Assembly: GCA_903867855.1 (NCBI GenBank)
Contig: CAIPTA010000181.1
Coordinates: 12,038 to 76,037 of the forward strand
DNA length: 64,000 nt
Reading direction: 5' to 3'
From: Oligoflexia bacterium
Lineage (GTDB): Bacteria > Bdellovibrionota > UBA1018 > CAIPTA01
The notes under the pieces were generated by a model, which saw nothing but the letters and a program-made list of their open reading frames with translations, had not been told where the DNA came from and searched no databases. Of this stretch, positions 862 through 37,442 are shown in pieces. Position numbers and translations under genes: made by a program. Within the stretch, counting starts at the first letter, position 1. Each line of letters opens with the position of its first letter.

Positions 862-1575
862 TTAGGGGCCAGGAACGGGGTTCACGATAAAGTTTACGCC
901 GTAGTTTCCTGGGTTGAAGGCCACTTGATGCTGCTTATCATTCGCGCTCGGCGTATAGAGCATATAGCCCATGATGTGCACTGTGGGGGAAATGCATTTG
1001 CCGGTGGTGGTGGGACAAATTGGTACCCACCAGAGCACTAGGCGAAAAGGGCAAAAGCTACTCGTTGTTGTATTTCCTACTTCGTTTGTGCCGCCGCCAG
1101 CCGCGAAGGGCGTTCCCGACCAGGTATTGCACTGAGCGCCAGTGAGAGTGAATCCCTTGGTAGTGGTGGTGCTTTGGTAGTAAACCGCGCCTGCAGTATT
1201 ATACACATCAAAGGCACCCGTCACCGAGGAAGAGTAATAATTTACGGAGCTATTCGAGGCTACTGAAGGCCCGTTATTCGCAGGATTGGGCGCTTGAGCC
1301 GCGCAATCGGTATAGTTGATTAGGCAAGCGAAGGTAGTGCTATTATTGGCGCCCCATAGCGTTTTCTTCCAGCCTGTTGGGTTTTGTAGAATCGACACCA
1401 CATCTCTACGAATCTGATTGGCTTGAAAGCTAATGCTGGAATTAGAATTTGTTTTGTTTAGGTTATCGATCAACTTGAACGAGGTAAGAATCACCACGGA
1501 GCTTAAGCCAACGGCGATCAGGGATTCCACTAGGGTAAAGCCTAAGCTATTTTTTTTCTTCACGGCTAACCTCAA
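862..1575 (-). CDS. type IV pilin-like protein (paralogue A) with C-terminal Cys motif
   Basis: N-terminus MRLAVKKKNSLG|FTLVESLIAVGL is a class-III prepilin leader with Gly-1/Phe+1/Glu+5 and a hydrophobic helix. C-terminus carries CPFRLVLWWVPICPTTTGKC...GY.LY.P...V.FNPGNYGVN, shared with 2902..3564 and 3670..4587. Confidence 0.75.
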   Translation of the reverse strand: MRLAVKKKNSLGFTLVESLIAVGLSSVVILTSFKLIDNLNKTNSNSSISFQANQIRRDVVSILQNPTGWKKTLWGANNSTTFACLINYTDCAAQAPNPANNGPSVASNSSVNYYSSSVTGAFDVYNTAGAVYYQSTTTTKGFTLTGAQCNTWSGTPFAAGGGTNEVGNTTTSSFCPFRLVLWWVPICPTTTGKCISPTVHIMGYMLYTPSANDKQHQVAFNPGNYGVNFIVNPVPGP

Positions 1576-1576
1576 A

Positions 1577-2905
1577 TCAAAGTATTGGGAATTCCGCTCT
1601 CGGTTCCCGAATCACAAAAAAGGTGAGTAAACAAAAAAGTATGGGCCAAAGCCAAAAGGCCTTGAGTATATATTTGTTTTCTACTCTCAGATAAAGTTCG
1701 CCAAGGCCCCAAATAAAGGCAAAGAGGGGTAAATAGGCCACTCGATCCGCCACGAGGCTTAGCTTCATGAAGGGCACATAGAAGAGGCCGCTGATGGAAA
1801 GGTAGGTAGCAAAGGTAACGCTTAATAACCAATAGCGCTTTGCGAGCCCCCAGATAAAGAGGCCGAGTGAGGCTACGGAAAGTAAGAGAAATAGCCAATT
1901 GAGTCCGGCTAACGTTTGCTTTGTGCGCACGGGGATTTCCGTGAAGCTTAACGATCGCAAGAGATAGTAGCTAAAGGTGCGACCCTCCACTTCCAGTTTT
2001 TCTTTCATGGCTTCAGGGCTCTTGGCGAACTGATCCTGAAGATATCTCTCTTCATGTTTGATGGGGGCTGGGGGAGCTTCGGCTTTCACCGCTATTGGAG
2101 TAGTAAGGATTTTTTTACTTTTACGAATCTTGGCCGTCTTCTTGATGGGCGCTTCTTTCGTTGGGGCCGCCACAAGTTCAGCGGGTTTTGGGGGATTCGT
2201 TAAAAAGTAGCTCGCACTATGCTCCGCTTCCGTGGGGTAATCATAGATTCCATGGGAAACGAGGAAGGCAGAATAGACGCTGAATAGGAGTGCAGGCGAG
2301 GAGTGAAGTAAACTTTTTTTCCAACCCAAAATTTTCGCATTCTTAAAAATTTCCATTGGCGCCAAGAAAAAAGCATAGCTTTTAGTGATCATCATGGCCA
2401 CAAGCAGAGCATTGCTGCGAAGGGGGGAGGCGGGCTTTTCTTCTAAAAAATCGCGCAGCCAAAAAGCGAAGAAAAGCGTGGAAAGCAGGCAGCCGATTTG
2501 GCTAATCCAAGTTACGGCCTCCACGGTGATGGGGCTTAGCCAAAAAAGGCTCGCAGAGAAGAGGGCGGCGGCAAAGGATTTTTTTCGTAAAAAAAGAAAT
2601 AAACAAAATCCATTTGCCCAGTGAAGCAGAATGAGTGCGCTGCGATAGAGAGCGAAATTTAAATGGAAGCCTTGGTATAGCAGCCAGTAAACGCTATGAG
2701 TGAGCGGCCAAGCCTTGGTATTCATTTGGCCGCGATACCAGTATTGCAGTGGGTTCTGGCTACTTTTTATGAAGCTATTGCCGAAGATTAGCGAGTTGTC
2801 ATCTACAAAGGCGCCATAGTGCAGGCTTGGAAAATACAATAGGAACAGAAGCGCGAGAGCGATTCCGGGCACAAAGTATTTTTGTTTAACCAGGGCTTCC
2901 ATCAT
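1577..2905 (-). CDS. polytopic inner-membrane protein, GT-C/PMT-like putative glycosyltransferase
   Basis: 442 aa with many hydrophobic helices and an acidic DD motif in the first loop (AFVDDNSLIF). A Lys/Pro/Ala-rich linker is followed by about 4 more TM helices. The gene abuts pilin paralogue A (1575/1577) and overlaps paralogue B by 4 nt, so it is probably co-transcribed with both. Confidence 0.35.
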   Translation of the reverse strand: MMEALVKQKYFVPGIALALLFLLYFPSLHYGAFVDDNSLIFGNSFIKSSQNPLQYWYRGQMNTKAWPLTHSVYWLLYQGFHLNFALYRSALILLHWANGFCLFLFLRKKSFAAALFSASLFWLSPITVEAVTWISQIGCLLSTLFFAFWLRDFLEEKPASPLRSNALLVAMMITKSYAFFLAPMEIFKNAKILGWKKSLLHSSPALLFSVYSAFLVSHGIYDYPTEAEHSASYFLTNPPKPAELVAAPTKEAPIKKTAKIRKSKKILTTPIAVKAEAPPAPIKHEERYLQDQFAKSPEAMKEKLEVEGRTFSYYLLRSLSFTEIPVRTKQTLAGLNWLFLLLSVASLGLFIWGLAKRYWLLSVTFATYLSISGLFYVPFMKLSLVADRVAYLPLFAFIWGLGELYLRVENKYILKAFWLWPILFCLLTFFVIREPRAEFPIL

Positions 2906-3564
2906 GGGTTTGGTGTGAGCACCAAATTCACTCCGTAGTTATTTGGATTAAAGGGCACTTTCTGGGCGGTATGGGAGGTGGGGGGATTATAAAGAGTATA
3001 GCCGAATACGTGCACCAGTGGATTTACGCAGCTCCCCACTGTGGTGGGGCAAATGGGCACCCACCAGAGCACCAATCGAAAGGGGCATTGCATATTCGGA
3101 GTAACAGTGGAAAAGCCTGTGGCGCCAGCGGTCGAAACCCCATTGGCCCAGTTAGTGCCGCATTGCTGGCCGCTGATATTAAAACCGCGAGCACCATCGG
3201 TACTGATGGGATAATAATTCACTCCAGAAGTATCATACACATCGAAAACGCCAGCCGGAGAGGCACTGGAAAATGTTCCCGATGCGGGGCCGTTCGTTTT
3301 ATAGGCGCTACAATCGGTGCCATTTTTCACGCAGGCAAGCGCGGCATTTCCTTTGATGGTATGTCGCCATGCGGTGAGGTTGGAAAGCAGGATGGAGATT
3401 TGCTTGCGAAAGGCATCAGCCTGAGCGGAGTTCGCGGCAGCAGTGGAGGATTTGTTCATGGTGGTATTGAGCGACATCATGCCGAGTGCTGCAATAGACG
3501 AAAGAGAAACAGCCACCATGAATTCAATGAGGGTAAACCCCAATTTATTGGAAATTAATTTCAT
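2902..3564 (-). CDS. type IV pilin-like protein (paralogue B)
   Basis: MKLISNKLG|FTLIEFMVAVSLSS is a canonical prepilin N-terminus with G|FTLIE. C-terminus carries CPFRLVLWWVPICPTTVGSC...GYTLYNP...VPFNPNNYGVN. Confidence 0.75.
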   Translation of the reverse strand: MKLISNKLGFTLIEFMVAVSLSSIAALGMMSLNTTMNKSSTAAANSAQADAFRKQISILLSNLTAWRHTIKGNAALACVKNGTDCSAYKTNGPASGTFSSASPAGVFDVYDTSGVNYYPISTDGARGFNISGQQCGTNWANGVSTAGATGFSTVTPNMQCPFRLVLWWVPICPTTVGSCVNPLVHVFGYTLYNPPTSHTAQKVPFNPNNYGVNLVLTPNP

Positions 3565-3669
3565 TTCTCCCCACTTTGCCCCAGAGTATAATTATAAACT
3601 AAGTTAAAGGGAATAACCAAGAGCGTGTCCTCGGGGAGACAGTCTGGCTGGAAACCGTGTAAAGTGGCG

Positions 3670-4587
3670 ATGGAGTTTGCCGTGAACAGAAAATACAGAA
3701 AAAATGAATTTGGCTTCGCGCTGCCTATCGTATTGGTGATGATCGCCTTGATCGCCGTGGTTACGGTGTATATGATCAGTCGCTCCACGGCGAGTTCGAA
3801 ACAATCAATTTATACGAATGGAACATTTCAAGGATCGAATATTATTACCCAGGTAACGAACCTAATTCAGGATAGTACCGCTTGGGATCATACCTTATAT
3901 GCCAACGCAGCGATGAGTTGCCTGAAGTTTAGTCCGGGAGTGGATTGCTATGCCGCCTCGACTGCGAACGGCAGCACCTATGTGCAGAATGTTACCTATC
4001 CCACCACAATGACTGGCTCTTTCGTGCTGTACGATCGCTCCGGTAAAATTTTTTATGATTCAACGGCCGCCACGAATGGATTCGACTATACGGGGCAGCC
4101 TTGCCCGTATACCACGTCAAATAGTTATAGCAATTCGTCGAATACAAAAACCTACGGTGATTCCAGCGGACAGTGCCCCTTTCGATTAGTGCTATGGTGG
4201 CAACCTCATTGCACACCAGCCTCTTCTCCCTGCAACTTAAATAATGCCCACCTCGATTATTATACGATTTATGGCTACTTGCTCTTTTCGCCAGTGGGAA
4301 ATAATACGTATAAAGTTCCATTTCGTCCGGAGAACTATAAAATCAGCATTAAAAAATCCACTACGGCAGCGAATGCTAACTATTGTTGTGCGATTGAGTG
4401 TAAGCGCACAACAGCCGATGCGGGCACGGCCTATGTAACCAAAACCATCGTGCAATCAGCAAATTGTTATCCGGGATCCTCGGAAGTGCCTTCCTCGATT
4501 TGTGGAGATGTATTTGCCGCGGATCCAGATGAGTGGGCCTATGATGGGAACGTAGTGACTAATTCTGGCACTTGTGCGGGCGGGTAA
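3670..4587 (+). CDS. pilin-like protein paralogue C (atypical, lacks Glu+5)
   Basis: Reading from the internal ATG at 3670 gives MEFAVNRKYRKNEFG|FALPIVLVMIALIAV: a short basic leader, Gly-Phe, then a hydrophobic helix with Ile at +5. A GTG at 3625 is an alternative start. Shares CPFRLVLWWQPHCTPASSPC...IYGYLLFSP...YKVPFRPENY with paralogues A and B. Confidence 0.55.
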   Translation: MEFAVNRKYRKNEFGFALPIVLVMIALIAVVTVYMISRSTASSKQSIYTNGTFQGSNIITQVTNLIQDSTAWDHTLYANAAMSCLKFSPGVDCYAASTANGSTYVQNVTYPTTMTGSFVLYDRSGKIFYDSTAATNGFDYTGQPCPYTTSNSYSNSSNTKTYGDSSGQCPFRLVLWWQPHCTPASSPCNLNNAHLDYYTIYGYLLFSPVGNNTYKVPFRPENYKISIKKSTTAANANYCCAIECKRTTADAGTAYVTKTIVQSANCYPGSSEVPSSICGDVFAADPDEWAYDGNVVTNSGTCAGG

Positions 4588-4676
4588 AATGACTGGAAAA
4601 CTTGGAATTAGTGCGCGATTATTAACGTCATCATTGATGGCGATGGTTTGCTTTTTAGTGAAGATAGGTTGAATCC

Positions 4677-5642
4677 ATGATTAAAAATATCAGAATTTTG
4701 TTTTTGTTTCTTTTTTCGGTTCAAGCAGGTGCAACGAGCTATGTGGGAATTGGAACGGCGTCTCCGGCGTCATTACTCACGCTTTACACAACGACAAATA
4801 TTCAGGGGCTAGAGATTGATGGAACATCTACCGCAACTAATACGGTGAAAAGCCTTTTTCTTGCGAACGTTACTGCCGGATCTTATAATTCCATCACCCA
4901 AACCGGGGATCAAGGAATAATCTACATGGGGACGACGATAGGTACTCCCAAGGGTTTTTTCATCGCGCCTTGGGCTAGTGCCACCACAGGTCTTCGGCTC
5001 GATACTAATGGCAACGTCGGGATCGGCACGACCTCTACGTACGGAGCTCTAACTGTAGCTAATGGTACAGATCATACGCTTAATGTGCGTGGGGATCCCG
5101 TCTCATTCGGTCTGCCTGCTGGTCTTCTTGGGCCGATTCTTCAAGGCGTAAATAGCGCTCAAACTGTCCAAGAGCCGATCACCTTGGAGGGATCAACAAT
5201 TAACTTGATGGGTGGAAGTGTGGGTATAGGTACCAGTAGCCCCTCTTATGCTTTAGATGTAACAGGCACCATCAGAGCTACAAATCTAATTCTAACTTCT
5301 GATCGCAGAGCAAAGAAAAATATAAGTAGTTTAGATGAAACAGAATCGTTGGAAAAATTGAGCCGATTGAATCCAGTTTCCTTTGAATGGAAAAACTCTG
5401 GCGAGGCTGATCTTGGTATTATCGCGCAGGAGCTTGCGGAGGTTTATCCTGAACTAGTTTTGAAGGATCAACAGGGCGCGCTTTCAATTCGTTCCACTTC
5501 TCTCATTGCTCCGCTCATTGCCTCAGTGAAAAAATTAAAGAGCGACAATGAACTATTGCGAGAAGAAAACGGAAAACAGAAATCGCGCCTCGATGAGTTA
5601 GAGAAAAAATTTAACGCTCTAGCAGCAAAAATAGAAAAGTAA
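4677..5642 (+). CDS. secreted tail-fibre-like (mosaic adhesive trimer-like) protein with C-terminal peptidase S74 intramolecular-chaperone domain
   Basis: Signal peptide MIKNIRILFLFLFSVQAGA. Repeated VGIGT..P..L.V fibre motifs. C-terminal block SDRRAKKNISSLDE...LSRLNPVSFEWK...DLGIIAQELAEVYPELV...SLIAPLIASVKKLKSDNELLREEN matches the auto-cleaving chaperone of phage tail fibres and endosialidases. Confidence 0.8.
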   Translation: MIKNIRILFLFLFSVQAGATSYVGIGTASPASLLTLYTTTNIQGLEIDGTSTATNTVKSLFLANVTAGSYNSITQTGDQGIIYMGTTIGTPKGFFIAPWASATTGLRLDTNGNVGIGTTSTYGALTVANGTDHTLNVRGDPVSFGLPAGLLGPILQGVNSAQTVQEPITLEGSTINLMGGSVGIGTSSPSYALDVTGTIRATNLILTSDRRAKKNISSLDETESLEKLSRLNPVSFEWKNSGEADLGIIAQELAEVYPELVLKDQQGALSIRSTSLIAPLIASVKKLKSDNELLREENGKQKSRLDELEKKFNALAAKIEK

Positions 5643-5646
5643 AACT

Positions 5647-6486
5647 ATGCTTCTTTCCCTGCTTATCACATTACTATCTAGCACTTTTGCTCATGCCACT
5701 GCTTGTGCGACCAGTGGTTTGATGACAGTCGCCTCTGGCGTTAATACTGTTTGCCAAAACAGTGTTTTAGGAACTCCTCAGGGATCATCTCTCGGCACTT
5801 GTGCAGGAACAACAGCTGGAACCACCACTTATTCGGCGGGTACCTACAAAGTATGTGATGGCTCTAATTGGTACGACATGAAGGGGAGTTCCATTGGCTC
5901 TTGTGTGGGAACTACAGCGGGCACATTGTCATACGTCTCAAATGCCTTTCAGTTTTGTGATGGTACTAATTGGTATAGTTTAACCTCTGGTACTGTGACG
6001 ATTAACTTAACCTCTACTTCCTGTGATGGAGTTTATTGTAAATATGTGAGCAGTGGAGATGCTGATGCAAATGGATATTGCATCAGTAATGGGTATGCCT
6101 CCGCTGTTTCTTCTACCTCAGGCGGGAACGGTTGCAACGGCTGTTATTATGTCGATTGGGTGTCCAATGCTTGGAACACTCCATATCACAATTGCAACAG
6201 CTGTAATCAAATGGCTACGGTTACTTGCCAAAGTGGAACTCCAAGTATTCCTTGTGGCGAAGCAATTTACTCCACAGGTGTTGTAAGTAACTATATCGAT
6301 GGAACTTGGGGGTCGATTAATGCGGGCTCTTGTCCGTACCCGAGTATGTATCAATTCCAAAACCTTGGCAGTCAGAGCACGGATCAAGGAGTGAAGCCTT
6401 TAGTCCGTTGTGGATATTGTGGTCCAGGGTCGGTGAACAACCCCTCAGTGACTTGCCTGAATAACTCAAATTGTGTGGCTCATTAA
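5647..6486 (+). CDS. secreted Cys-rich protein with internal duplication
   Basis: Signal peptide MLLSLLITLLSSTFAHA and more than 25 Cys. The segment C.GTTAGT..Y......CDG.NWY occurs twice in tandem. It starts 5 nt after the fibre gene stop. Confidence 0.6.
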   Translation: MLLSLLITLLSSTFAHATACATSGLMTVASGVNTVCQNSVLGTPQGSSLGTCAGTTAGTTTYSAGTYKVCDGSNWYDMKGSSIGSCVGTTAGTLSYVSNAFQFCDGTNWYSLTSGTVTINLTSTSCDGVYCKYVSSGDADANGYCISNGYASAVSSTSGGNGCNGCYYVDWVSNAWNTPYHNCNSCNQMATVTCQSGTPSIPCGEAIYSTGVVSNYIDGTWGSINAGSCPYPSMYQFQNLGSQSTDQGVKPLVRCGYCGPGSVNNPSVTCLNNSNCVAH

Positions 6487-6679: not shown

Positions 6680-7519
6680 TTACAATATTTTATGGATAGA
6701 TTTTACTGGCGCTAGCTTCCGCTTCAGCAGCGCAGGCACCGGGCAGAGAAGGATACTCATCCAAACCGCCACGCTAAAATAGAGCGACATCCAAAGAAAT
6801 TCATAGCCCCAATCTTTCACATCGTGAGTGACCATCCAGCGCGTGTTGAGATCTTTTATGCCATCCATAAAGCCTAGAAACTGCTTGCCGCTCGCAATAT
6901 CCGCCTGATGACGACTCATGTACATGGGCACATCTACAGTGGCCATATACATCACATACATCGCGCACCCAATGGCACCGAGGATGATCGCTCTACGAAA
7001 CCAGCCTTGAAAGTGTGAGCGAAGATCAAGAAGAGCCAACACGATCAAGAAATAGCTCACTCCCCACAATGATTCCTCCACGCAGTTGCCGATATAATTT
7101 GTGGTCACCACGGCATACCAAGAGCAAATTTCTGCCACACAGATAAGCGGCACAATCATGCGCGCAATTTTGCTCGTGAAATTTGCCTTACTCTCTTGAG
7201 CGAGAAAGGAAAGGAGCTCCGCCCATTCAGCCACGAAACAAAGTTCTGCGATTGTGGCTACAGAGCGGCCCACGAAAACGGAGGAGAGCCAAGTATCAAA
7301 GAGGCAAATGCGCTGCACATCTGCCCTCGGCAGAAGGGAGCGAAAGGCGCAGCCGAAAACATAGGCGCCAGAAAGGAGGAGGAGTTTTTTTGTGGTGGGA
7401 TCCTTTGGGAGGCTTAGGCGGGCCTTTGTCCAAGCGCTACAATTTAGTGCGCTCACACCTACTAGAAAGAGCCACCAAATGGCCACAGGGTTTGAGAGGG
7501 TAATCCAGGAGAGATTCAT
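6680..7519 (-). CDS. hypothetical polytopic membrane protein
   Basis: 279-aa ORF with multiple hydrophobic segments and no recognisable motif. It overlaps the downstream MNT gene start by 4 nt. Confidence 0.45.
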   Translation of the reverse strand: MNLSWITLSNPVAIWWLFLVGVSALNCSAWTKARLSLPKDPTTKKLLLLSGAYVFGCAFRSLLPRADVQRICLFDTWLSSVFVGRSVATIAELCFVAEWAELLSFLAQESKANFTSKIARMIVPLICVAEICSWYAVVTTNYIGNCVEESLWGVSYFLIVLALLDLRSHFQGWFRRAIILGAIGCAMYVMYMATVDVPMYMSRHQADIASGKQFLGFMDGIKDLNTRWMVTHDVKDWGYEFLWMSLYFSVAVWMSILLCPVPALLKRKLAPVKSIHKIL

Positions 7520-7788
7520 TTGGTGAGCCTATAGAAGCATTTACTAAAGAGCCGGATATGTTCGAGCAGTTCTTTGCTTTCAATTTGGGTATAGATCGAG
7601 AGGTCTATTTTATAGGGTAGGAGTAGATCATCTAGCGCGGATTCTATGGCCAAGAGTTCTGAATTTTTTCTAAAGTTAACTTTGGCTCTAGAACCGTAAA
7701 CCAGAACTTCTTCTACATTCGAAAATGCGCTAAAAACATCTTGAATGCTAGCAATGGTTTTTTCGCTGAGGCCAAACTCACTTTTCAT
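7516..7788 (-). CDS. MNT-type minimal nucleotidyltransferase (HI0073-like), catalytic motif degenerate
   Basis: ..LVYGSRAKVNFRKNSELLAIE.. aligns with the HI0073-type G-S-x(9-11)-D-x-D-L motif, but DLD reads EL: one codon shorter and only one acidic residue retained. Overlaps the HEPN partner by 4 nt. Confidence 0.55.
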   Translation of the reverse strand: MKSEFGLSEKTIASIQDVFSAFSNVEEVLVYGSRAKVNFRKNSELLAIESALDDLLLPYKIDLSIYTQIESKELLEHIRLFSKCFYRLTK

Positions 7789-8015
7789 GTATGTAAAAGG
7801 CTACTTAATTTTTGGGAAAGTTTTTCAAACTGGTCGAGATAGGATCCTACTACCTTTTGGATAATATCCTCTGCCGTTGGGCGATTATAGGTATGGGATG
7901 TTTGATTTCTGCTCTTGATCATTTCCATCCAGCAATCTCCGTCGCTCATTTGCTGAAGAGCTACTTTGAAGTTTTGGAAACGCTGCTGCCAGCGAATTTC
8001 TTGTCTCATGATCAC
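7785..8015 (-). CDS. HEPN / nucleotidyltransferase-substrate-binding (HI0074-like) protein, internally shortened
   Basis: N-terminus IRWQQRFQNFKVAL and C-terminal R-x4-H-x-Y HEPN motif (RNQTSHTY) are both present. At 76 aa the protein is far shorter than the family norm (about 120-140 aa), consistent with an in-frame internal deletion. Confidence 0.5.
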   Translation of the reverse strand: MIMRQEIRWQQRFQNFKVALQQMSDGDCWMEMIKSRNQTSHTYNRPTAEDIIQKVVGSYLDQFEKLSQKLSSLLHT

Positions 8016-10084: not shown

Positions 10085-11413
10085 ATGAATAAGACTCCGA
10101 CTGGAACCGGCAAAGGCGGCACACTTTATTGCTCTTTCTGTGGCAAAAGCCAACGGGAAGTGAAGAAGTTGATCGCAGGACCAAGCGTTTATATTTGTGA
10201 CGAGTGTATTGATCTCTGCAACGATATCATTACCGAAGACGTTACCAAAGAAGCCCCTGGGGTAGCTGGCGCCAAGAAAACTGGCGTGGAAAGCTTGCCG
10301 AAACCAGAGGAAATCAAGAAGCACCTCGATGAATACGTGATCGGCCAAGATCGCGCCAAGCGAGTGCTCTCGGTGGCGGTGTATAACCACTACAAACGCA
10401 TTAGTCAGCCTGGTGGAAAATCCCCTGGGGGTATCGAACTCGCAAAATCCAATATTTTGCTGGTAGGCCCCACTGGTTCGGGAAAAACCCTGCTCGCGCA
10501 AACGCTCGCGCGCATGCTGAATGTGCCGTTCACGATCGCCGATGCGACCACGCTTACTGAGGCGGGTTATGTGGGGGAAGACGTAGAAAATATCATCCTC
10601 TCGCTCTTGCAGAACTGCGATTTCGACGTGCAACGTGCTCAAAAGGGCATTGTGTATATCGACGAGGTGGATAAGATCACCCGCAAATCGGAAAACCCAT
10701 CCATTACCCGCGACGTATCTGGGGAAGGCGTGCAACAAGCGCTCCTCAAGATCATCGAAGGTACGGTTGCCAATGTGCCGCCCAAAGGGGGACGCAAACA
10801 CCCTCAGCAAGAGTTCATTCAGGTAGATACCTCGAATATTCTCTTCATCTGCGGTGGCGCTTTCGTGGGTCTCGAGAAAACAATTCAAAACCGTATGGGC
10901 AAACGTGCCATGGGTTTGAGCACGAATCACAAAGAGAAAAAATTGCTCACCGGCCAGGAACTCTTCTCTGGCTTGGAGCCTGAGGATTTGGTTCATTACG
11001 GCTTGATTCCAGAGTTCGTAGGACGCTTGCCCGTAGTGGCCGCTCTTGCGGAGCTCGATGAAGCCGCTCTCGTGGACATTCTCACGAAGCCAAAAAACGC
11101 GCTCATCAAGCAATACCAAGCGCTGCTACAGATGGACAATGTGGCTCTCGAGTTCGAGAATCCTGCGATCCATGCGGTAGCTCAAGAAGCTCTACGCCGC
11201 CGCACAGGGGCAAGGGGACTTCGCGCCGTGCTCGAACAGCATATGCTAGATGTGATGTATGAAATCCCTGGTAGCACGAATATCAAGGGTTGCCGCGTGA
11301 CAAAAGAAGTGATCACGAACAACCAAAAACCAGAGCTGATCTATGCAGATCCCACTCCGGTGAAGAAGCCAGGCGAAGAAACTAAGACGCCATCTGACCA
11401 AGAAATCGCATGA
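10085..11413 (+). CDS. clpX: ATP-dependent Clp protease ATP-binding subunit ClpX
   Basis: N-terminal C4 zinc ribbon (CSFCGK..CDEC), Walker A GPTGSGKT and the full AAA+ module are present. The gene lies directly downstream of clpP. Confidence 0.95.
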
Positions 11414-24752: not shown

Positions 24753-25298
24753 TTGTGGTATCAAGAATTTATGAAACAGGGTGATTTTTTTCCTATCCAA
24801 CAAAAAGCCTATGGTGGTGAGCTACTGAAAACTCGTCGTGGTCGCATGCATGGGCGCACTCTTTCTACGAAACATTCAATGCACCTTGTGCTCCGCTCTA
24901 CTCGGGCTAAAGGGGCGCTTTCTTTTTTAAGACATCGGATCACAATTGATCGTATTTTGACTAAATTTGCGGCAAAAAATGGAGTAAGGATTTTGTCTCT
25001 GGCCAACGTAGGGAATCACCTGCACCTGGAGATACGGCTCTCTACGCGGCATACTTATCGCGCCTTCATTCGAGCGATCACGGCGGCTATCGCCATGGCG
25101 GTGCAAGGGAAGAATCGCTGGAATAAGATTCAAGAGAAATTTTGGGACTATCGCCCCTTTACCCGCATCGTAGTGGGCTATCGAGCGCTGCTCTCGTTAA
25201 AAGACTATATCGAGATCAATCAGCTAGAGGGACTTGGCGTAGCACGGTCGAAGTCTCGTCTAGCTTTGGGCTGGCGAGTAGTGAGACCGCCAGGGTGA
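24753..25298 (+). mobile_element. RAYT / IS200-like HUH (Y1) tyrosine-transposase gene, apparently solitary
   Basis: HUH motif NHLHLEIRL and a C-terminal KFWDYRPF...DYIEINQL block matching the RFWE...DYIYINP catalytic-Tyr helix of REP-associated tyrosine transposases. A 530-bp non-coding region lies upstream. Confidence 0.55.
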
Positions 25299-30601: not shown

Positions 30602-33448
30602 TTAGTTGGCTTTTTTGAAGCCGTTTGTGAAGTCATTGGAGTTATTGATGCCTTTGTCGGAAGTGGCAGATTCGTCTTGCTTAGACATTGCATCGGGCAC
30701 CGCTCCTTTTGCGTCAGTTATTTTTTTATGCATTACCTCGCACGCACATTTCTTCGTAGTTGGAGGGGCTCCAAGATCACAGGTTGCATCGGCGTCGGTA
30801 TAGGCAGAGCTCGAAGTCGCCGCGGGGGTAGTCATTGCACAAGCTTGCATTAAATTGGAGTACGCATCAAGAATACTTCCATTGCCATTTGCGAGTTCGG
30901 GTGTGCGTTCTTTAAAGTTAAATGTACTTGGAACTTCTGCAACGCAACCAGCGTTAACTTGTGCTTGGCATGCTAATTTACCAGCAGCGCCTCCACTTTT
31001 TTTCTTACAACCGTCTAAGGATTCGACGGCAGCAGAATAGGCCTTTACGGTTGAGTCATTGCTATTTGCGTTCATTGCAGCTTGAGCAATGTTTTTTTGA
31101 GCAGCCTCATCTGAACAATCATCGGAATTACCAGAGCAGGCGCTATTCGCTTGGCTTCTGCAGTCGGCAAGATCCGATTTTACCTCATTTGCACTGTCGG
31201 AACTATCTGAGCCACTATCGCTGGGTTTGGATCCGTTTTCTTGTCCATTCCGCATCATCCCACTTAGTAGTGTTATGAATCGTTTTTCTGAATTAGGGCT
31301 GCATAAATTTGCATAAGGCGCTCTGCAGTTGTTGCTTCCCAAAACTTTATCTAAATCGTCATAGTCTGATTTGATTAGGCTGCAATATCCAGTCATCGCC
31401 ATAGCCTCATTTTTTTTGTCCAAAACTTTATTTTTCAAATCAGTAGTGGCCTTCGCGTTTGCAGTGACGGATTCTGGATCCATATCGCTAACGCCGAGGA
31501 GGCCCTTCGCATCTGGCATTGGATCAGAGGAGAAGAGATTATTTCTATCTTTATCTTTCGTGAGGCTCGCGGGGTCTGCCTTTTTCATCGTAATACCAGC
31601 AGTGGCAGGTACGCCGAGAGCCGCTAGAGAGGAGCTAAGGTCAGCCACGGCGGAAGTAACTTTTCCAGCAGCGATAGCGAAAGAAGCCGATGCGGCTCCG
31701 ATCACATTAGTAATCTGAGCATTTGTAGCTTTTGCAAAACTAACTAATTTTTGTTTGTAAGCGCTTGATTGGGAGACATCGTAATCCTCTCGCTGCTGCA
31801 TCAGGGTGATACAAGCTTCAAAGCCAACGCATGTTTGCTGATCGGGCACTGTGGTTGGGCTGCCATTTGTATCCAGGGTTAGGTGCTGAAGTGTAATCGT
31901 GGTTGGGCTTGGATTAGCGGTCCAGGTGCCGCCAGTGCTGAGCTGAGCATACGCAGTTGTGCCGTTGATTCCACTTTCTAACTGCGCTTTAAGTTCTCGT
32001 AAACAATCGAGGCCTGCAGTCGGATCTGTGGTGGCGCTGCAGTTCGCTGCAAACTGGGAAAGACCGGTACTATAGCTTTTCGAGAATCGCGTGAGGAATC
32101 GGTTCATTGCTTTCGTCACTGTATTTGTGGCTTGGGTCTCGATAGATAAAATTTTCTTTTTAGCTGAGTCTACTTGATAGTAGCCAGCATAGTACTTTGG
32201 TCCCTGTGAGTTCATGTCTTGATCAAAATTGTTCATGGCCCTTTTAAAACAAGTCTTCATCGAACTTTGGTAGAAGTTTTTTAGAGTATCAGGGCTCACG
32301 GAACTTCCATTCAAGGCAAGTGAATCAAAAGTTGAGCTTAAATTGGTGAGTGCTTGTGCAAGCTGATTATTTACATACTGTTTAAAAGCTTTAGGGTCCA
32401 AAGCATTTAAATTTCCTGCACTAATGGAGTTCTGCAGGATATCTTGCTGCTGCTGAATTAAGCTGCTGATGTTTGCCGAGTTGCCGTTATTGAGCTCACC
32501 CTGCACCTGATTGGCGCCAAACGATTGGTTGGTAGCAGAGGCCAAACACGCAAGGGGAGACATCAAGCTTGTGCCATTGGGGCCGTTAATTCTGCAGGGC
32601 ATATTGCTATCGCCCACAAAGCATCCATTGATAGCATCACTGAGAATGCCTTTCATCCAATCATTTGCGGTTTTATTGCTGCTTATTTTGAGGTTGTCCA
32701 CCTGCCCCGCGAGATCTCCCGCAAAGCCTTGGCCACCAATGCTTACATCGCTGGCCCCTTGCGCTCCAGAGGAGCTAGGACTGATTAGGGATTGAACTTG
32801 GTTGATCATCGCATCAACTGCTTGGAGTTGATTGTTGAGGCCATTATCTCCTTCAAGATCATCCTTTATCTTTTTCGCCATATCGTCATAGTTCGTTACG
32901 ATGGATTGCTGGCTATCGTAAGCACCGTTGGCGGCTTCAATATAGGCTTTTAGCTGATCCTTGAATTGACCAGTAGCGATGGCATCCATCGCGGTTTGCA
33001 TATTCTTAATACAAAGAAAGCGATCGTTAGCGGCAGAAAACTGATCGAGCCAGGTAAGAGCATCTCCCCAAACAGTGTTGTAGGTCGAACATGTAACCTT
33101 CTCGCCAAGAATCGCGTTGGGGGGAAGTGCTGCTCCGCTTGCTGACCGTTTTCCTTTTTTTGCATTCGTTTCACACTGCGCTTCCGTAGCCATCGCCTGA
33201 GCAATAGCTGCGTTAGCTTGGCCAAGTTGAGTCCCTACGGTTCCCATTTTCGCGGTGGCGCCTACGAAGCTCGCCATATTCTGCGCTTGGTTTACGCCGT
33301 TAATTACCGTGGTGAGGCCGAGAGCTGCGCCACTAATTGCGCCAGCAGCTCCGGAGGCGGCATCAGTGCTTGCATCTCCCAACGCTGTGGAGCTGGCGAT
33401 CGATAGCAAAAGTATAGAGCAGGTGATGAGTTTTAAATCGGTGCGCAT
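30602..33448 (-). CDS. giant secreted Cys-containing A/S/N/Q-rich protein of unknown function
   Basis: Start at the ATG at 33448, with a GGAGG RBS. Signal peptide MRTDLKLITCSILLLSIASSTALG. About 950 aa with low-complexity composition and numerous paired Cys. Confidence 0.5.
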   Translation of the reverse strand: MRTDLKLITCSILLLSIASSTALGDASTDAASGAAGAISGAALGLTTVINGVNQAQNMASFVGATAKMGTVGTQLGQANAAIAQAMATEAQCETNAKKGKRSASGAALPPNAILGEKVTCSTYNTVWGDALTWLDQFSAANDRFLCIKNMQTAMDAIATGQFKDQLKAYIEAANGAYDSQQSIVTNYDDMAKKIKDDLEGDNGLNNQLQAVDAMINQVQSLISPSSSGAQGASDVSIGGQGFAGDLAGQVDNLKISSNKTANDWMKGILSDAINGCFVGDSNMPCRINGPNGTSLMSPLACLASATNQSFGANQVQGELNNGNSANISSLIQQQQDILQNSISAGNLNALDPKAFKQYVNNQLAQALTNLSSTFDSLALNGSSVSPDTLKNFYQSSMKTCFKRAMNNFDQDMNSQGPKYYAGYYQVDSAKKKILSIETQATNTVTKAMNRFLTRFSKSYSTGLSQFAANCSATTDPTAGLDCLRELKAQLESGINGTTAYAQLSTGGTWTANPSPTTITLQHLTLDTNGSPTTVPDQQTCVGFEACITLMQQREDYDVSQSSAYKQKLVSFAKATNAQITNVIGAASASFAIAAGKVTSAVADLSSSLAALGVPATAGITMKKADPASLTKDKDRNNLFSSDPMPDAKGLLGVSDMDPESVTANAKATTDLKNKVLDKKNEAMAMTGYCSLIKSDYDDLDKVLGSNNCRAPYANLCSPNSEKRFITLLSGMMRNGQENGSKPSDSGSDSSDSANEVKSDLADCRSQANSACSGNSDDCSDEAAQKNIAQAAMNANSNDSTVKAYSAAVESLDGCKKKSGGAAGKLACQAQVNAGCVAEVPSTFNFKERTPELANGNGSILDAYSNLMQACAMTTPAATSSSAYTDADATCDLGAPPTTKKCACEVMHKKITDAKGAVPDAMSKQDESATSDKGINNSNDFTNGFKKAN

Positions 33449-33563
33449 AGAGCCTCCAAAGCGAATCCCCATCTAACTGATCGGACTTTTCTAGAAAAGT
33501 CTTTACCGTAGGAAAATACTTTGGATATTGTTTAAGGATTTTACAGTGTCTAAAAGTTCGACA

Positions 33564-35870
33564 CTATTGGAAGCTTAAGAGCTTAGAGAAGATGATCGCG
33601 ATTTGGCCACGGTCCGCTTTATAGTTCCACTGTTCAAAGGTGAGGTAGCGCCACCAAACATAACGCGCCTCTTCGCCCAGGCTTTCAGTGGGCACATGCT
33701 GGAAGCGAAGCAAATAGGTGAAGAGGGCAAACCAATCTTCATTCGATTTCAATCCGTGTGGCGTGGCCTTTTCGCCGAGGAAACGAGCGAAAGTTGGATA
33801 GGCAGTTTGGCCTTCGGATTGATCGATATAACCATCTTTATTTACATCGTATTTCGAGAAAAGAATTTCGATATAATACGGAATCAAGATATAGGCTTCC
33901 GTGTCGGATAGCTGATAAGGCGCGCTTGCGCTACCTTTTCTCACCAAAGCATCAAAGGCTTCCATAATGGATCCTTGTTGGGCGGCTGGCTGGCCTTTGA
34001 AGTAGTTCGCGAAGGCGGGAATATAATTCCAATACTCAGGCGCATTTTTCTTAAAGGCATTGCGGTAGCAAGTGGCATCGATCAAGGCATTTCCCTTTGC
34101 ATCCACGCCGGTGGAGCCACAGATGGCCTCAATCGAGGAATGCACAATTGGAGCTTGCTTCACTACAGAGAGCAATAAGTACTCAAGTTCGAGCGCATCG
34201 TTGATACTGAGAATATTATTGCCCACGCCAGCGTAGGTGAACATATCTGCTTCTAGCATATAGGTTGTGGCGGAATCTTTAGAACTCTCCGAGAGAATAT
34301 TGGCGCTCTCTAGAATAGGGAAGAAATCTGCCCACAAGGAGTTCACTTCATTCTTGGTGAGGGCAGGGTCACTGAGCGGCTGGGGAGTGCCGTAGCCACG
34401 CATCATGAGCGCCGAGATACTTCGGAAAATATTGAGATAGCTGAGGTTGGTAAAGCCAATGTCCTCCGCGGGCTTGCCATCAGGAATGGTTACCCAGGCC
34501 GTATTGAGCGGCATTACCGTGCGCACGTTCGCGATTCGCTTTTGCATATCGCGGATGGCGGCGAGAGAATTTTGATCGCCGAAGGATGTCCACTGCAGGG
34601 CTTTATCGGGCGTGACTGCGAGAATATCACTTCGCTTCATAGTGATTGAGTTGATGTTTTGACCATTCGCTACACTAGTATAGAGACCGCTCAAATAGAG
34701 CTGCGCTTCCGACCAATTGGTGAAATCCGCATACATTTGATCGATGCTACCAGGATTAATTCCGGTATTTTTCTCTGCAAGCGGGGCAGCCTTATAGAAA
34801 ACTTTATCAAAGAGCACGCGAAGCACTGGCTTTAGAGAATCTGCAGAGATCGGCACGAGCTGATTCGCAGAGAGTGTATCGATCATCGTATCCAATTCAT
34901 CGTAGCTGATGAAACCGGCTGGGTGGTTGGCGATAGAAAGTTGGAGAAGTGTTTTAGCGTCGGCGGCGATTTGTTCAAAACGCTGCAAGCCTTTTCCCTT
35001 CACTAGCGAATCATGCTGCTTTTGGTAGTAGGCGGTGCGCACTGCGAGGGTGAAATAGCGAGGCACTAAATAGAATACTTGCTGCCAATCGCTCTTTTGG
35101 ATCACATCGGCGGGTGGAGCTACGAGAATGGATTTTCCGTAACGAACAATCTTGAGGTAGCGCAATGCATCTACAGCCCAAGCCCCGCCATTATCTGCCG
35201 GGTTCGGACCATAAAAGAGAAAGCCCATTTGGGTGATCAAGGCATCGAGATGATCGAAGCTATAGGTACCAATACTTCCCTGCAGGGCCTCACCAATTTT
35301 GGCGGTGGCATCATTGAGCGCTTGGAAGGCATTTTCAAAGCTATCGGGGTCGAGTCCGCGCTTGGAAATCATATCGAAGCCGAATGGTAAATAGGGGCGC
35401 ATCACCTTCGACTGCTGCCGGAATACTTCCATGATACGAAGTGTATTGCGAAGTTCGTCGGCGGTGATTTGGTCTACGCGTCCGCCGAGCACGCCTTGCT
35501 TAAAGGCCATCGCTTCCGCAATAAACTCAGGAGTGAGTGTGCGGTTCTTCATGAAAAATTTCTGAATGAAGGCGCGAAGTTCTTCTGGAGTATAGTAATC
35601 CGGGTTAGCCCCTTTGGTGCTTTCCACAAAAGTTCGGAAGGCTTTACTTAAGCAGAGCCAGAAGGAATCTAGTTCGTCTTCACTAATAGTGCCCTGGAAG
35701 AATTTTTTGAAAGGAGTGCCAGGATCGGAAAGGCAACCTCCAGACAGCGCATTCACGGATAGGGATTGCGGATCTTGTTGAGGATCATTGAGCTTGAGCG
35801 AGCAGGCGGTGAGCAAGCTGCTGGCAATGGCGATTGCTGCGATTGGGCGAAGGATTTTACTAAAAGACAT
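33564..35870 (-). CDS. large lipoprotein with EF-hand-like Ca-binding loop
   Basis: Lipobox ..SSLLTAC. C-terminal DVNKDGYIDQSE fits the EF-hand loop pattern D-x-N-x-D-G-x-I-x-x-x-E. 768 aa, otherwise unrecognised. Confidence 0.5.
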   Translation of the reverse strand: MSFSKILRPIAAIAIASSLLTACSLKLNDPQQDPQSLSVNALSGGCLSDPGTPFKKFFQGTISEDELDSFWLCLSKAFRTFVESTKGANPDYYTPEELRAFIQKFFMKNRTLTPEFIAEAMAFKQGVLGGRVDQITADELRNTLRIMEVFRQQSKVMRPYLPFGFDMISKRGLDPDSFENAFQALNDATAKIGEALQGSIGTYSFDHLDALITQMGFLFYGPNPADNGGAWAVDALRYLKIVRYGKSILVAPPADVIQKSDWQQVFYLVPRYFTLAVRTAYYQKQHDSLVKGKGLQRFEQIAADAKTLLQLSIANHPAGFISYDELDTMIDTLSANQLVPISADSLKPVLRVLFDKVFYKAAPLAEKNTGINPGSIDQMYADFTNWSEAQLYLSGLYTSVANGQNINSITMKRSDILAVTPDKALQWTSFGDQNSLAAIRDMQKRIANVRTVMPLNTAWVTIPDGKPAEDIGFTNLSYLNIFRSISALMMRGYGTPQPLSDPALTKNEVNSLWADFFPILESANILSESSKDSATTYMLEADMFTYAGVGNNILSINDALELEYLLLSVVKQAPIVHSSIEAICGSTGVDAKGNALIDATCYRNAFKKNAPEYWNYIPAFANYFKGQPAAQQGSIMEAFDALVRKGSASAPYQLSDTEAYILIPYYIEILFSKYDVNKDGYIDQSEGQTAYPTFARFLGEKATPHGLKSNEDWFALFTYLLRFQHVPTESLGEEARYVWWRYLTFEQWNYKADRGQIAIIFSKLLSFQ

Positions 35871-37254: not shown

Positions 37255-37442
37255 TGGCAACAACAGCATTTTGCTCCACTGATAAGGCAATTTTTTCTAG
37301 CCTTTAGTATAGCAATCTGCTTCCTATAAAACAACGCAAGAAAGCCGCAGAAACGCTCAGCTATTGGTTTAGGGGTACTTGTTAAAAGGTATTTATTTAT
37401 AGCCAAAAACACTACGTGTTTAGGTTTTTGACAGCTGAAAAA

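What the first reader, a model, noticed from the sequence alone, without database searches (positions are those of the whole stretch)
4677..5642. Chromosomal tail-fibre-like protein with peptidase-S74 intramolecular chaperone domain but no prophage context
The C-terminal block (SDRRAKKNISSLDE...NPVSFEWK...GIIAQELAEVYPELV) is the auto-cleaving trimerisation chaperone of phage tail fibres and spikes. The N-terminal part has VGIGT..P fibre repeats and a Sec signal peptide. No capsid, terminase, integrase or other tail genes occur anywhere in the 64 kb. The protein is therefore probably a bacterial surface fibre, as in the Bdellovibrio MAT fibres, and here it is embedded in a pilin locus.
Basis: partly seen in the sequence, partly recalled or inferred. 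Interest (0 to 1): 0.7.

Follow-up and report, generated by a model that had tools for sequence, protein, structure and literature searches.

The report
Phage-like fibre tied to pilin genes
A bacterium of the Bdellovibrio phylum encodes a very short, exported, self-cleaving protein resembling a phage tail fibre. It is not part of a prophage. It belongs to a conserved gene cluster with three pilin-like proteins and is probably the adhesive tip of a type IV filament.

Summary
- a Sec-type signal peptide;
- three VGIGT "capping-loop" motifs;
- a C-terminal Peptidase_S74 intramolecular chaperone (60 bits against a cut-off of 22) with the catalytic Ser208/Lys213 intact.

No phage gene turned up in the 64 kb window or in the 10 kb upstream of it. 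LeuRS places the host in an uncultured, deep-branching Bdellovibrionota lineage, not in Bdellovibrio itself.

It is not a canonical MAT fibre. It is 321 aa, against at least 626 aa for MATs, and it has no room for the MAT N-terminal domain.

- The three adjacent pilin-like paralogues belong to a family in which about 21 of the 150 best cluster representatives carry a fibre plus S74 module fused to their C-terminus.
- One such fusion (P0012) is also among the closest relatives of this S74 domain.
- An Oligoflexia MAG has three such fusion genes in tandem.
- The unfused cluster recurs in a divergent organism. There too it has three pilins (one lacking Glu5), a membrane protein of about 430 aa and a signal-peptide S74 protein.

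Best reading: this is a split "modular pilin", in which an S74-matured trimeric tip docks onto a type IV filament. The S74 and non-prophage parts are well supported. Tip display is inferred.

The parts
4677..4733 (+). Sec-type signal peptide (aa 1-19, MIKNIRILFLFLFSVQAGA, predicted cut after A19)
   Evidence: Read from the sequence and a hydropathy calculation. The orthologue in L093 also starts with a signal peptide (..ATPAFA|LNTM) followed at once by a VGIGT loop.
4734..5297 (+). Mature fibre or tip, aa 20-207 (188 aa, 19.0 kDa, pI 4.5, no Cys); predicted triple beta-helix-type module
   Evidence: PHROG tail-fibre profiles extend back to about aa 38-106. Aa 85-223 are 55% identical to the fibre module of the prepilin-type protein P0010. 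There are weak Foldseek matches to the Bd2133, Bd1334 and Bd3182 tips. The monomer AF2 model is poor in this region.
4743..4784 (+). Capping-loop motif 1 (aa 23-36, VGIGTASPASLLTL)
   Evidence: motif family described in PMC10769870.
5016..5057 (+). Capping-loop motif 2 (aa 114-127, VGIGTTSTYGALTV)
5220..5261 (+). Capping-loop motif 3 (aa 182-195, VGIGTSSPSYALDV)
   Evidence: it aligns to the Bd3182 tip loops in 8ojn.
5298..5315 (+). Catalytic Ser208...Lys213 (SDRRAK), the predicted autocleavage site
   Evidence: S208, D209 and K213 are invariant in alignments A1 and A2. The SDxxxK motif is defined in PMC10769870.
5298..5642 (+). Peptidase_S74 intramolecular chaperone domain (aa 208-321, 12.8 kDa) with a C-terminal long helix at aa 273-320; stop codon at 5640-5642
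   Evidence: Pfam 60.2 bits. AF2 pLDDT is above 93. Foldseek matches MyRF ICA 7dc3 at E 6.7e-9 and K1F 3gw6 at 1.6e-3. phmmer matches 7dc3 at 1.2e-9 and 8jov at 2.8e-6.
3670..4587 (+). Pilin-like paralogue 'C' (305 aa). Its N-terminus G|FALPI lacks Glu5, and it has a 75-aa Cys-rich C-terminal extension. It lies 89 nt upstream of the S74 gene on the same strand.
   Evidence: It is a paralogue of the other two pilin-likes. Orthologues P0276 and P0281 also lack Glu5 and share the extension. The cap subunit of a minor-pilin tip complex lacks Glu5 (PMC10191384).
2902..3564 (-). Pilin-like paralogue 'B' (220 aa), prepilin-type N-terminus KLG|FTLIE
1577..2905 (-). 442-aa multi-pass membrane protein of unknown family, translationally coupled between pilin genes B and A
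   Evidence: No Pfam, NCBIfam or PDB hit. It is conserved next to three pilin genes in L093 (36% identity, E 3e-65), L091 and TARA loci L159/L160.
862..1575 (-). Pilin-like paralogue 'A' (237 aa), prepilin-type N-terminus SLG|FTLVE
   Evidence: Pfam N_methyl 20.9 bits, just under the 21.2 cut-off. Prepilin motif. 43% identical to paralogue B.
5647..6486 (+). 279-aa secreted Cys-rich protein (20 Cys) with two C..G..Y..CDGxNWY repeats. It starts 4 nt after the S74 stop codon and is probably co-transcribed.
   Evidence: The motif is shared with the N-terminus of P0002, whose S74 region is 94% identical to the window protein over the aligned 44% of the query. No orthologue was found in the L093 cluster, so its membership of the system is uncertain.

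Best explanation
The gene encodes the precursor of a very short trimeric fibre of phage-tail-fibre type. The proposed steps are as follows. (1) The Sec pathway exports it using a cleavable signal peptide (aa 1-19). This is inferred from the sequence. (2) In the periplasm the C-terminal S74 intramolecular chaperone (aa 208-321) brings three chains together and templates folding of the preceding beta-helical module (aa 20-207, with three VGIGT capping loops). This is inferred by homology to the K1F endosialidase, MyRF and Bd3182. (3) The Ser208/Lys213 dyad then cuts the chaperone off. The catalytic residues are shown to be present, but cleavage itself is untested. (4) The resulting stub, three chains of about 19 kDa with no anchor and no Cys, does not act alone. 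It is the detached 'effector module' of a modular type IV pilin system. It docks onto a tip complex formed by the three adjacent pilin-like paralogues. One of these lacks Glu5, as filament-capping subunits do. The fibre is therefore presented at the tip of a type IV filament as an adhesin. This step is inferred from gene fusions and a conserved neighbourhood. The ligand, probably a surface glycan by analogy with Bd3182 and P22, is speculative. Overall the system works like trimeric tip minor pilins such as CofB and TcpB with their secreted partner CofJ, but the trimer is built by a phage-type S74 chaperone.
For: S74 identity.

Not prophage. Viral relatives are no closer than bacterial ones: at most 43% on IMG/VR and 31-37% in GenBank phages.

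Fusion links between the pilin family and S74 fibres:
- P0012 has a pilin module 30% identical to window pilin B (E 2e-15) and an S74 region 48% identical to the window protein (E 2e-41).
- P0010 is a prepilin-type protein carrying a fibre module 55% identical to window aa 85-223.
- An exhaustive HMM search with the pilin-like profile found 1,372 representatives. Of the best 150, 32 carry capping-loop or S74 modules, and about 21 of those have a complete S74 domain with SDxxxK.
- In most of the fusions examined (at least 14 of the 18 whose junction was printed) the first VGIGT loop follows the pilin module within a few tens of residues. In the window protein it follows the signal peptide within 3 residues.
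- An Oligoflexia MAG (GCA_031292385.1) has three tandem pilin-fibre-S74 genes in a housekeeping context.

Conserved split cluster: L093 and its sister contig carry orthologues of all three pilins (37-44% identity), of the membrane protein (36%, E 3e-65) and a 320/366-aa signal-peptide S74 protein with the same three-loop architecture (30% over aa 23-289).

Specificity: among 43 S74 ORFs in 79 unrelated genome loci, none is fused to a prepilin motif and only 3 have a prepilin-like ORF within 3 kb.

Literature: the pilin+S74 architecture IPR012902-IPR030392 has been catalogued, and trimeric tip pilins CofB/TcpB with the secreted partner CofJ are known (PMC8179133). Tip complexes are capped by a subunit lacking Glu5 (PMC10191384).
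Against: - The window protein has a Sec-type signal peptide, not a prepilin-type one, so any attachment to pilins must be non-covalent. No interaction has been shown.
- No type IV filament machinery (ATPase, platform protein, secretin, prepilin peptidase) lies in the 64 kb window, and the rest of the genome could not be examined.
- A junction HMM built from 15 fused proteins did not match the C-terminal extension of pilin C. The idea that pilin C retains the junction module is therefore unsupported.
- The gene order differs between the window and L093.
- The more distant TARA loci have three pilins plus the membrane protein but no S74 gene within 8 kb, so the fibre is an accessory rather than a core part.
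- The trimer could not be modelled, and the monomer model of aa 20-207 has low confidence.
Confidence: 0.6

Rival explanations
1. A free-standing MAT-type surface fibre. The S74-matured trimer would sit on the outer surface by itself and recognise prey, and the pilin genes would be unrelated neighbours.
For: The genome is Bdellovibrionota. The protein has an S74 domain and capping loops like the S74-type MATs. Foldseek gives matches to Bd2133, Bd1334 and Bd3182. Short signal-peptide S74 proteins without pilin neighbours are common in other phyla.
Against: The protein has no room for the 130-aa N-terminal domain that all 21 MATs share. It is half the length of the shortest MAT. phmmer with the N-domain of a long Bdellovibrionales S74 fibre (L033) does not hit it. 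The mature protein has no evident anchor. Fusions and the conserved cluster tie it to the pilin family.
Confidence: 0.2
2. Cargo of a type II secretion-like pseudopilus. The three pilin-like proteins would form a short piston that expels the folded, periplasmic S74 trimer as a soluble lectin or toxin-like factor, and the fibre would not stay on a filament.
Confidence: 0.15
3. A relic of a degraded prophage or tailocin tail-fibre gene with no present cellular role.
For: The domain family is typical of phage tail fibres and spikes.
Against: The protein has a signal peptide, which virion proteins assembled in the cytoplasm lack. The ORF and catalytic residues are intact. No phage genes lie within 64 kb or in the 10 kb upstream. 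GC content is like the surroundings. An orthologue with the same architecture sits in the same cluster in a divergent organism. Viral relatives are at most 43% identical.
Confidence: 0.03

Closest known systems
S74-type MAT fibres of Bdellovibrio bacteriovorus (e.g. Bd3182; Caulton et al. 2024, PMC10769870)
   Same: It is chromosomal rather than phage-borne and comes from the same phylum. It has a signal peptide, beta-helix modules with VGIGT-type capping loops, and a C-terminal S74 chaperone with SDxxxK. There are weak sequence and fold matches to the solved tips.
   Different: It is 321 aa, against 626 to about 1,000 aa or more. It has no conserved 130-aa N-terminal domain and no long stalk. 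It is encoded in a pilin-like gene cluster. The host is not Bdellovibrio, and predation is not shown.
Modular type IV pilins with an S74 module (architecture IPR012902-IPR030392; Raynaud et al. 2021, PMC8179133)
   Same: The fibre plus S74 module is the same, and the pilin module of those fusions belongs to the same family as the window's three pilin-like proteins.
   Different: Here the pilin and the fibre are separate genes, and the fibre has a Sec signal peptide in place of a class III one. The published catalogue read the module as a 'peptidase'. No member has been studied experimentally, as far as the searched literature shows.
Trimeric tip minor pilins CofB/TcpB with the secreted partner CofJ (type IVb pili)
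   Same: The concept matches: a trimer at the filament tip, plus a Sec-exported protein that docks onto it to mediate adhesion.
   Different: There is no sequence or fold relationship. In CofB the trimerising domains are beta-repeat and beta-sandwich domains, not an S74-templated beta-helix. Here the three pilins are different paralogues.
Phage tail fibres and spikes with a C-terminal intramolecular chaperone (K1F endosialidase 3gw6, T5 pb1, Thermus phage phiFa distal tail fibre)
   Same: The S74 domain, catalytic dyad and capping-loop fibre modules are shared.
   Different: This protein has a signal peptide, has no virion context, is at most 31-43% identical, and is far shorter.

Membership tests
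Peptidase_S74 / intramolecular chaperone domain (PF13884) | Profile match above the curated threshold | tested here: met
   60.2 bits against a cut-off of 22, aa 208-262, covering the full profile 1-58.
Peptidase_S74 / intramolecular chaperone domain (PF13884) | Catalytic Ser-Lys dyad in an SDxxxK motif | tested here: met
   S208-D-R-R-A-K213. S208, D209 and K213 are invariant in 108 aligned relatives.
Peptidase_S74 / intramolecular chaperone domain (PF13884) | Chaperone fold (beta-hairpins plus a long C-terminal helix) | tested here: met
   AF2 pLDDT is above 93 for aa 208-321, with a helix at 273-320. Foldseek matches 7dc3 at E 6.7e-9 (target TM 0.62) and 3gw6 at 1.6e-3.
Peptidase_S74 / intramolecular chaperone domain (PF13884) | Trimerisation and autoproteolytic release | not testable with these tools
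   No multimer prediction was available, and concatenated sequences are not accepted. This needs expression of the wild type against S208A.
Bdellovibrio MAT superfamily (PMC10769870) | Signal peptide | tested here: met
   Sequence features only.
Bdellovibrio MAT superfamily (PMC10769870) | Conserved beta-rich domain of about 130 aa immediately after the signal peptide (present in all 21 MATs) | tested here: not met
   A VGIGT capping loop starts 3 residues after the predicted cleavage site. Only 93 residues precede the second loop. phmmer with the post-signal-peptide domain of a 2,070-aa Bdellovibrionales S74 fibre (L033) gave no hit to this protein. Caveat: full-length HD100 MAT sequences could not be obtained, so L033 serves as a proxy.
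Bdellovibrio MAT superfamily (PMC10769870) | Long trimeric fibre (626 to about 1,000 aa or more) | tested here: not met
   The precursor is 321 aa and the mature protein 188 aa.
Bdellovibrio MAT superfamily (PMC10769870) | Capping-loop motif and an S74 (or alternative adhesive) terminus | tested here: met
   Three loops and an S74 domain.
Bdellovibrio MAT superfamily (PMC10769870) | Display on the predator surface, with a role in prey handling | not testable with these tools
   The organism is an uncultured MAG. Its lifestyle is unknown.
Modular type IV pilin with an S74 module (IPR012902-IPR030392) | Class III (prepilin) signal peptide and pilin module on the same polypeptide | tested here: not met
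   The S74 ORF has no G-F-[ST]-L-x-E motif and no pilin-profile hit. Pilin modules are encoded by separate adjacent genes.
Modular type IV pilin with an S74 module (IPR012902-IPR030392) | Fibre plus S74 module homologous to that of the fusions | tested here: met
   48% identity to P0012 (E 2e-41) and E 1e-15 to 1e-19 against the three L087 fusions.
Phage tail fibre within a prophage | Neighbouring virion, lysis or integration genes | tested here: not met
Type IV pilin / pseudopilin (the three neighbouring genes) | Prepilin-type N-terminal cleavage/methylation motif with Glu5 | tested here: met
   Met for two of the three. Paralogue B scores 26.5 against 21.2 on Pfam and 23 against 16.3 on TIGR02532. 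Paralogue A scores 20.9 against 21.2 on Pfam (borderline) but has a perfect G|FTLVE motif. Paralogue C has G|FALPI without Glu5, which is conserved in its orthologues.
Type IV pilin / pseudopilin (the three neighbouring genes) | Pilin fold (long N-terminal helix packed on a beta-sheet) | tested here: inconclusive

The most novel reading that the evidence does not exclude
A type IV filament in a Bdellovibrionota lineage is armed with a phage-type trimeric fibre matured by an S74 chaperone. The fibre is either fused to the pilin (the tandem triplet in Oligoflexia) or, as here, exported separately through Sec and docked non-covalently onto a three-pilin tip complex capped by a subunit lacking Glu5. 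This would be a previously undescribed way of building a pilus-tip adhesin. It could also point to the surface element that presents phage-like fibres in predatory bacteria, which is still unidentified.
Probability: 0.4. Interest if true: 0.8.

Novelty: new variant of a known kind. Interest (0 to 1): 0.55.

Why it matters
Bacterial S74 fibres (MATs) were described only in 2024, and what holds them on the cell is unknown. The authors themselves raised a possible interplay with type IV pili. Separately, pilin+S74 fusions were catalogued in 2021 but read as 'peptidases' and never studied.

This locus connects the two observations. One pilin-like family is repeatedly fused to, or clustered with, S74-matured fibres. 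That gives a concrete and testable model: a phage-derived trimeric tip displayed on a type IV filament. It also gives a minimal system of six genes with a 188-aa mature fibre in which to test it. If true, it would extend the known ways that type IV filaments acquire adhesive specificity, and the ways that phage receptor-binding modules are domesticated.

Tried and rejected
- A genome scan with a 35-sequence alignment failed because no conserved stretch was found. The single-protein scan did not recover the source genome, so it is not a GTDB representative.
- tblastn of the window's neighbours against 79 unrelated S74 loci found no homologues, so the cluster is lineage-restricted.
- The word-indexed search made the pilin family look like an orphan with 3 clusters. 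The exhaustive HMM search corrected this to 1,372 representatives.
- Exact-cluster look-ups gave no taxon names. LeuRS homologues were used for taxonomy instead.
- The afdb50 fold library was unavailable, so MAT full-length models could not be compared. The MAT supplement holds no N-domain sequence.
- PDB has no match to the L033 N-domain.
- P0010 against the downstream Cys-rich protein is not significant (E 0.7). Only a short motif is shared with P0002.
- A junction HMM from 15 fusions did not hit the C-terminal extension of pilin C. The idea that pilin C keeps the fusion junction is rejected as untested resemblance.
- Pfam, NCBIfam and PDB searches say nothing about the 442-aa membrane protein or the Cys-rich protein. 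A GT-C-like reading of the membrane protein, based on its VDDN loop, rests on memory only and is not claimed.
- Foldseek of the pilin model against PDB gave nothing.
Full report
**Observation**

The ORF is at exactly the stated coordinates: window:4677-5642(+), 321 aa, ATG start.
- Pfam Peptidase_S74 (PF13884) matches aa 208-262 at 60.2 bits, against a gathering score of 22.
- There are 33 PHROG hits; most of the 25 shown are tail-fibre or baseplate families. Some extend back to about aa 40-100, so the N-terminal part is fibre-like too.
- By sequence, the best solved relatives are the MyRF intramolecular chaperone (7dc3, E 1.2e-9) and a phage tail fibre (8jov). There is also a weak match of the VGIGT loops to the Bd3182 MAT tip (8ojn).
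- The SDxxxK motif is S208-D-R-R-A-K213. S208, D209 and K213 are invariant in alignments of 35 and 108 relatives.
- Three VGIGT..P..L 'capping-loop' motifs lie at aa 23, 114 and 182.
- The N-terminus (MIKNIR / ILFLFLFSV / QAGA|TS) has the charge, hydrophobic core and A-x-A site of a Sec signal peptide. This is a reading of the sequence, not a predictor output.
- An AlphaFold2 monomer model is very confident for the S74 domain (pLDDT above 93, long helix at 273-320). It is poor for aa 20-207, as expected for a chain that folds only as an intertwined trimer.
- Foldseek against PDB returns MyRF ICA (E 6.7e-9). Weaker hits are the Bdellovibrio fibres Bd2133, Bd1334 and Bd3182 and the K1F endosialidase chaperone.

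**No prophage**

Pfam scans of 47 window ORFs and PHROG scans of the ten large ORFs without a Pfam hit found no capsid, portal, terminase, tail, lysis or integrase gene.
- The window instead holds ClpP/ClpX, LeuRS, an H+-pyrophosphatase, an SNF2 helicase, photolyase, PdxS/PdxT and similar genes.
- ARAGORN found no tRNA gene.
- GC content around the gene (0.45) is close to that of the window (0.44-0.52).
- Bases 1-25000 have no megablast match among 50,697 phage records.
A sister contig shows the 10 kb upstream: mevalonate-pathway genes, glycosyltransferases and a YgfZ-like gene.
- Viral relatives are no closer than bacterial ones. GenBank phages reach 31% over the full length (Thermus phage phiFa distal tail fibre) or 37% over the S74 part. 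IMG/VR contigs reach at most 43%.

**Organism**

The exact protein occurs in a single cluster, and its longest contig is 110,885 nt and comes from an NCBI MAG. The genome is not a GTDB species representative.

LeuRS is 71% identical to its nearest unnamed relatives. It is 67-68% identical to 'Bdellovibrionota bacterium' MAGs, 64% to Bacteriovoracaceae, and 62% to Halobacteriovorax and Oligoflexia. The host is therefore a deep-branching, uncultured member of Bdellovibrionota, not Bdellovibrio. A predatory lifestyle is not shown.

**Is it a MAT fibre?**

Caulton et al. define MATs by three features:
- a signal peptide;
- a long trimeric fibre (typically about 1,000 aa, shortest 626-627) ending in an S74 domain (13 members) or another adhesive domain (8 members).

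They also describe a capping-loop motif (PMC10769870).

The window protein has the signal peptide, the loops and the S74 domain. Its whole mature part, however, is only 188 aa and begins with a capping loop 3 residues after the signal peptide. There is no room for the N-terminal domain.

Long S74 fibres from Bdellovibrionales and Pseudobdellovibrionaceae MAGs (L003, L004, L021, L033) range from more than 736 aa (a partial ORF) to more than 3,640 aa. L033, and the incomplete L021 ORF, carry an N-terminal domain of this kind; in L033 it follows a signal peptide. That domain does not match the window protein. Full-length HD100 MAT sequences could not be obtained, so this last test uses a proxy.

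My conclusion is that the protein shares modules and mechanism with S74-type MATs but is not a member as the family is defined.

**The pilin neighbourhood is functional**

The gene sits in a compact six-gene cluster (862-6486):
- Minus strand: pilin-like B (2902-3564), a 442-aa multi-pass membrane protein (1577-2905) and pilin-like A (862-1575). These are translationally coupled.
- Plus strand, divergent from the above: pilin-like C (3670-4587), the S74 gene (89 nt further on) and a Cys-rich secreted protein (4 nt after the S74 stop codon).

Four lines of evidence tie these pilins to the fibre.

1. Fusions.
   - P0012 (465 aa) is among the closest relatives of the window's S74 region in 5.8 billion proteins (48% identity, E 2e-41). 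It carries at its N-terminus a prepilin signal and a pilin module homologous to the window's pilins (30% identity, E 2e-15).
   - P0010, another prepilin-type protein, carries a fibre module 55% identical to window aa 85-223, but with a different C-terminus.
2. Family-wide pattern.
   - An exhaustive HMM search of 1.84 billion cluster representatives with the pilin-like profile found 1,372 relatives.
   - Of the best 150, 76 are 350 aa or longer.
   - Thirty-two carry capping-loop or S74 modules, and about 21 of those have a complete S74 domain and SDxxxK.
   - In most of the fusions examined (at least 14 of the 18 whose junction was printed) the first VGIGT loop follows the pilin module after a short Cys-Trp...Cys loop.
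   - The window protein thus corresponds to the part of such a fusion that follows the pilin module, with a Sec signal peptide in place of the pilin.
3. Tandem fusions. An Oligoflexia MAG (GCA_031292385.1) has three pilin-fibre-S74 genes in tandem (635, 643 and 638 aa) among MutS, pyruvate kinase and PilZ genes.
4. The split arrangement recurs. In L093 and a sister contig (GC 0.58, a different organism) there are:
   - orthologues of pilins B, A and C (44, 38 and 37% identity; C again lacks Glu5 and has the same extension);
   - an orthologue of the membrane protein (36% identity, E 3e-65);
   - a 320/366-aa protein with a signal peptide, a VGIGT loop 4 residues later, three loops in all and an S74 domain (30% identity to the window protein over aa 23-289).

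As a control, among 43 S74 ORFs in 79 unrelated genome loci none is fused to a prepilin motif, and only 3 have a prepilin-like ORF within 3 kb. None of those loci holds this pilin family.

More distant TARA loci keep three pilin genes plus the membrane protein but have no S74 gene within 8 kb. The fibre is therefore an exchangeable accessory of a more widespread three-pilin module.

**Mechanism proposed**

*Shown:*
- domain identity;
- an intact catalytic dyad;
- an export signal at the sequence level;
- the absence of phage context;
- fusion and neighbourhood links to a pilin family.

*Inferred by homology:* the S74 domain trimerises the chains, templates the beta-helix and then cuts itself off at Ser208. 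This leaves a trimer of 19-kDa chains.

*Inferred from context:* this trimer is presented on a type IV filament whose tip complex is made of pilins A, B and C.
- The published rule is that filaments assemble from the tip and that the tip complex is capped by a subunit lacking Glu5 (PMC10191384). That fits pilin C.
- A precedent exists in the trimeric tip pilin CofB, which binds the secreted CofJ.
- The pilin+S74 architecture was listed among the most frequent modular pilins by Raynaud et al. They read it as a peptidase (PMC8179133). The present data argue that it is a fibre-folding device, not an enzyme acting on other substrates.

*Speculative:*
- the ligand, a glycan by analogy with Bd3182 and P22;
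- how one homotrimer docks on three different pilins;
- the role of the membrane protein;
- the role of the Cys-rich protein.

**Weak points**

- No interaction has been shown.
- The trimer could not be modelled.
- A junction HMM did not match the extension of pilin C.
- Structural support for the pilin fold is weak.
- Gene order differs between the two split clusters.

Rivals, with my confidence in each:
- A free-standing MAT-like fibre: 0.2.
- Cargo of a T2SS-like pseudopilus: 0.15.
- A phage relic: 0.03.

**Verdict**

The protein itself is a new, unusually small member of the known class of bacterial S74 fibres. Its genetic coupling to a pilin family that is elsewhere fused to the same module makes it a new variant of a known kind. 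It also yields a testable model of a type IV filament tipped with a phage-type fibre. Interest is 0.55.

Noticed in passing
window 1577-2905 (-): This 442-aa multi-pass membrane protein has no Pfam, NCBIfam or PDB match. It is translationally coupled between two pilin genes. Orthologues in L093, L091 and TARA loci L159/L160 always lie next to three prepilin-type genes. A (F/Y)VDDN..F.NSF loop after the first transmembrane segment is conserved.
   Followed up: partly
window 5647-6486 (+): This 279-aa secreted protein has 20 Cys and two C..G..Y..CDGxNWY repeats. The same short motif occurs at the N-terminus of the S74 proteins P0002 and P0043 and inside long Bdellovibrionales fibres (L003, L033). 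It has no family match, and no orthologue was seen in the L093 cluster.
   Followed up: partly
window 7516-8015 (-): Adjacent small genes encode a Polbeta-type nucleotidyltransferase and an NTase substrate-binding protein, an MNT/HEPN-like toxin-antitoxin pair. A similar pair lies 5 kb from the pilin-S74 fusion P0279 in L089.
   Followed up: no
window 30602-38573 (-): Four consecutive large ORFs (956, 768, 476 and 376 aa) on one strand have no Pfam or PHROG match at all.
   Followed up: no
window 24753-25298 (+): An IS200-like Y1 transposase (possibly a RAYT) is the only mobile-element gene seen in the window.
   Followed up: no
window 10085-11413 (+) (ClpX): Its 90%-identity cluster includes a 142-aa fragment deposited as 'Vibrio sp. 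FNV 38' (MDR9824714.1) on a 426-nt contig. This is probably contamination of a Vibrio assembly by a relative of this organism, which hints at an association with Vibrio.
   Followed up: no
L093 1-3056: Two tyrosine-recombinase genes abut the 3' end of the orthologous S74 gene. Its product is 366 aa there and 320 aa on the sister contig, where other small genes take their place. This could be an insertion or a switching element at the chaperone end.
   Followed up: no
L087 8086-13850: Three tandem pilin-fibre-S74 fusion genes (635, 643 and 638 aa) lie in an Oligoflexia MAG (GCA_031292385.1). The count of three matches the three separate pilin paralogues in the window and raises the question of heterotrimeric fibres.
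   Followed up: partly
L076 (Deltaproteobacteria MAG), fibre ORF: A fibre ORF is interrupted by an intein-like insert directly after a VGIGT loop (..SIAGH|CVTGDTLL ... VAHN|T). Separately, in L084 the pilin-S74 fusion P0012 is followed by a Hint-domain protein and a B_lectin protein.
   Followed up: no
L085 56-9528: P0070 has a different pilin family fused to a fibre plus S74 module. It lies directly upstream of a PilM/PilO/PilB/PilT/PilC type IV pilus assembly cluster. Pilin-S74 fusions therefore occur in more than one pilin family and can sit next to the machinery.
   Followed up: partly
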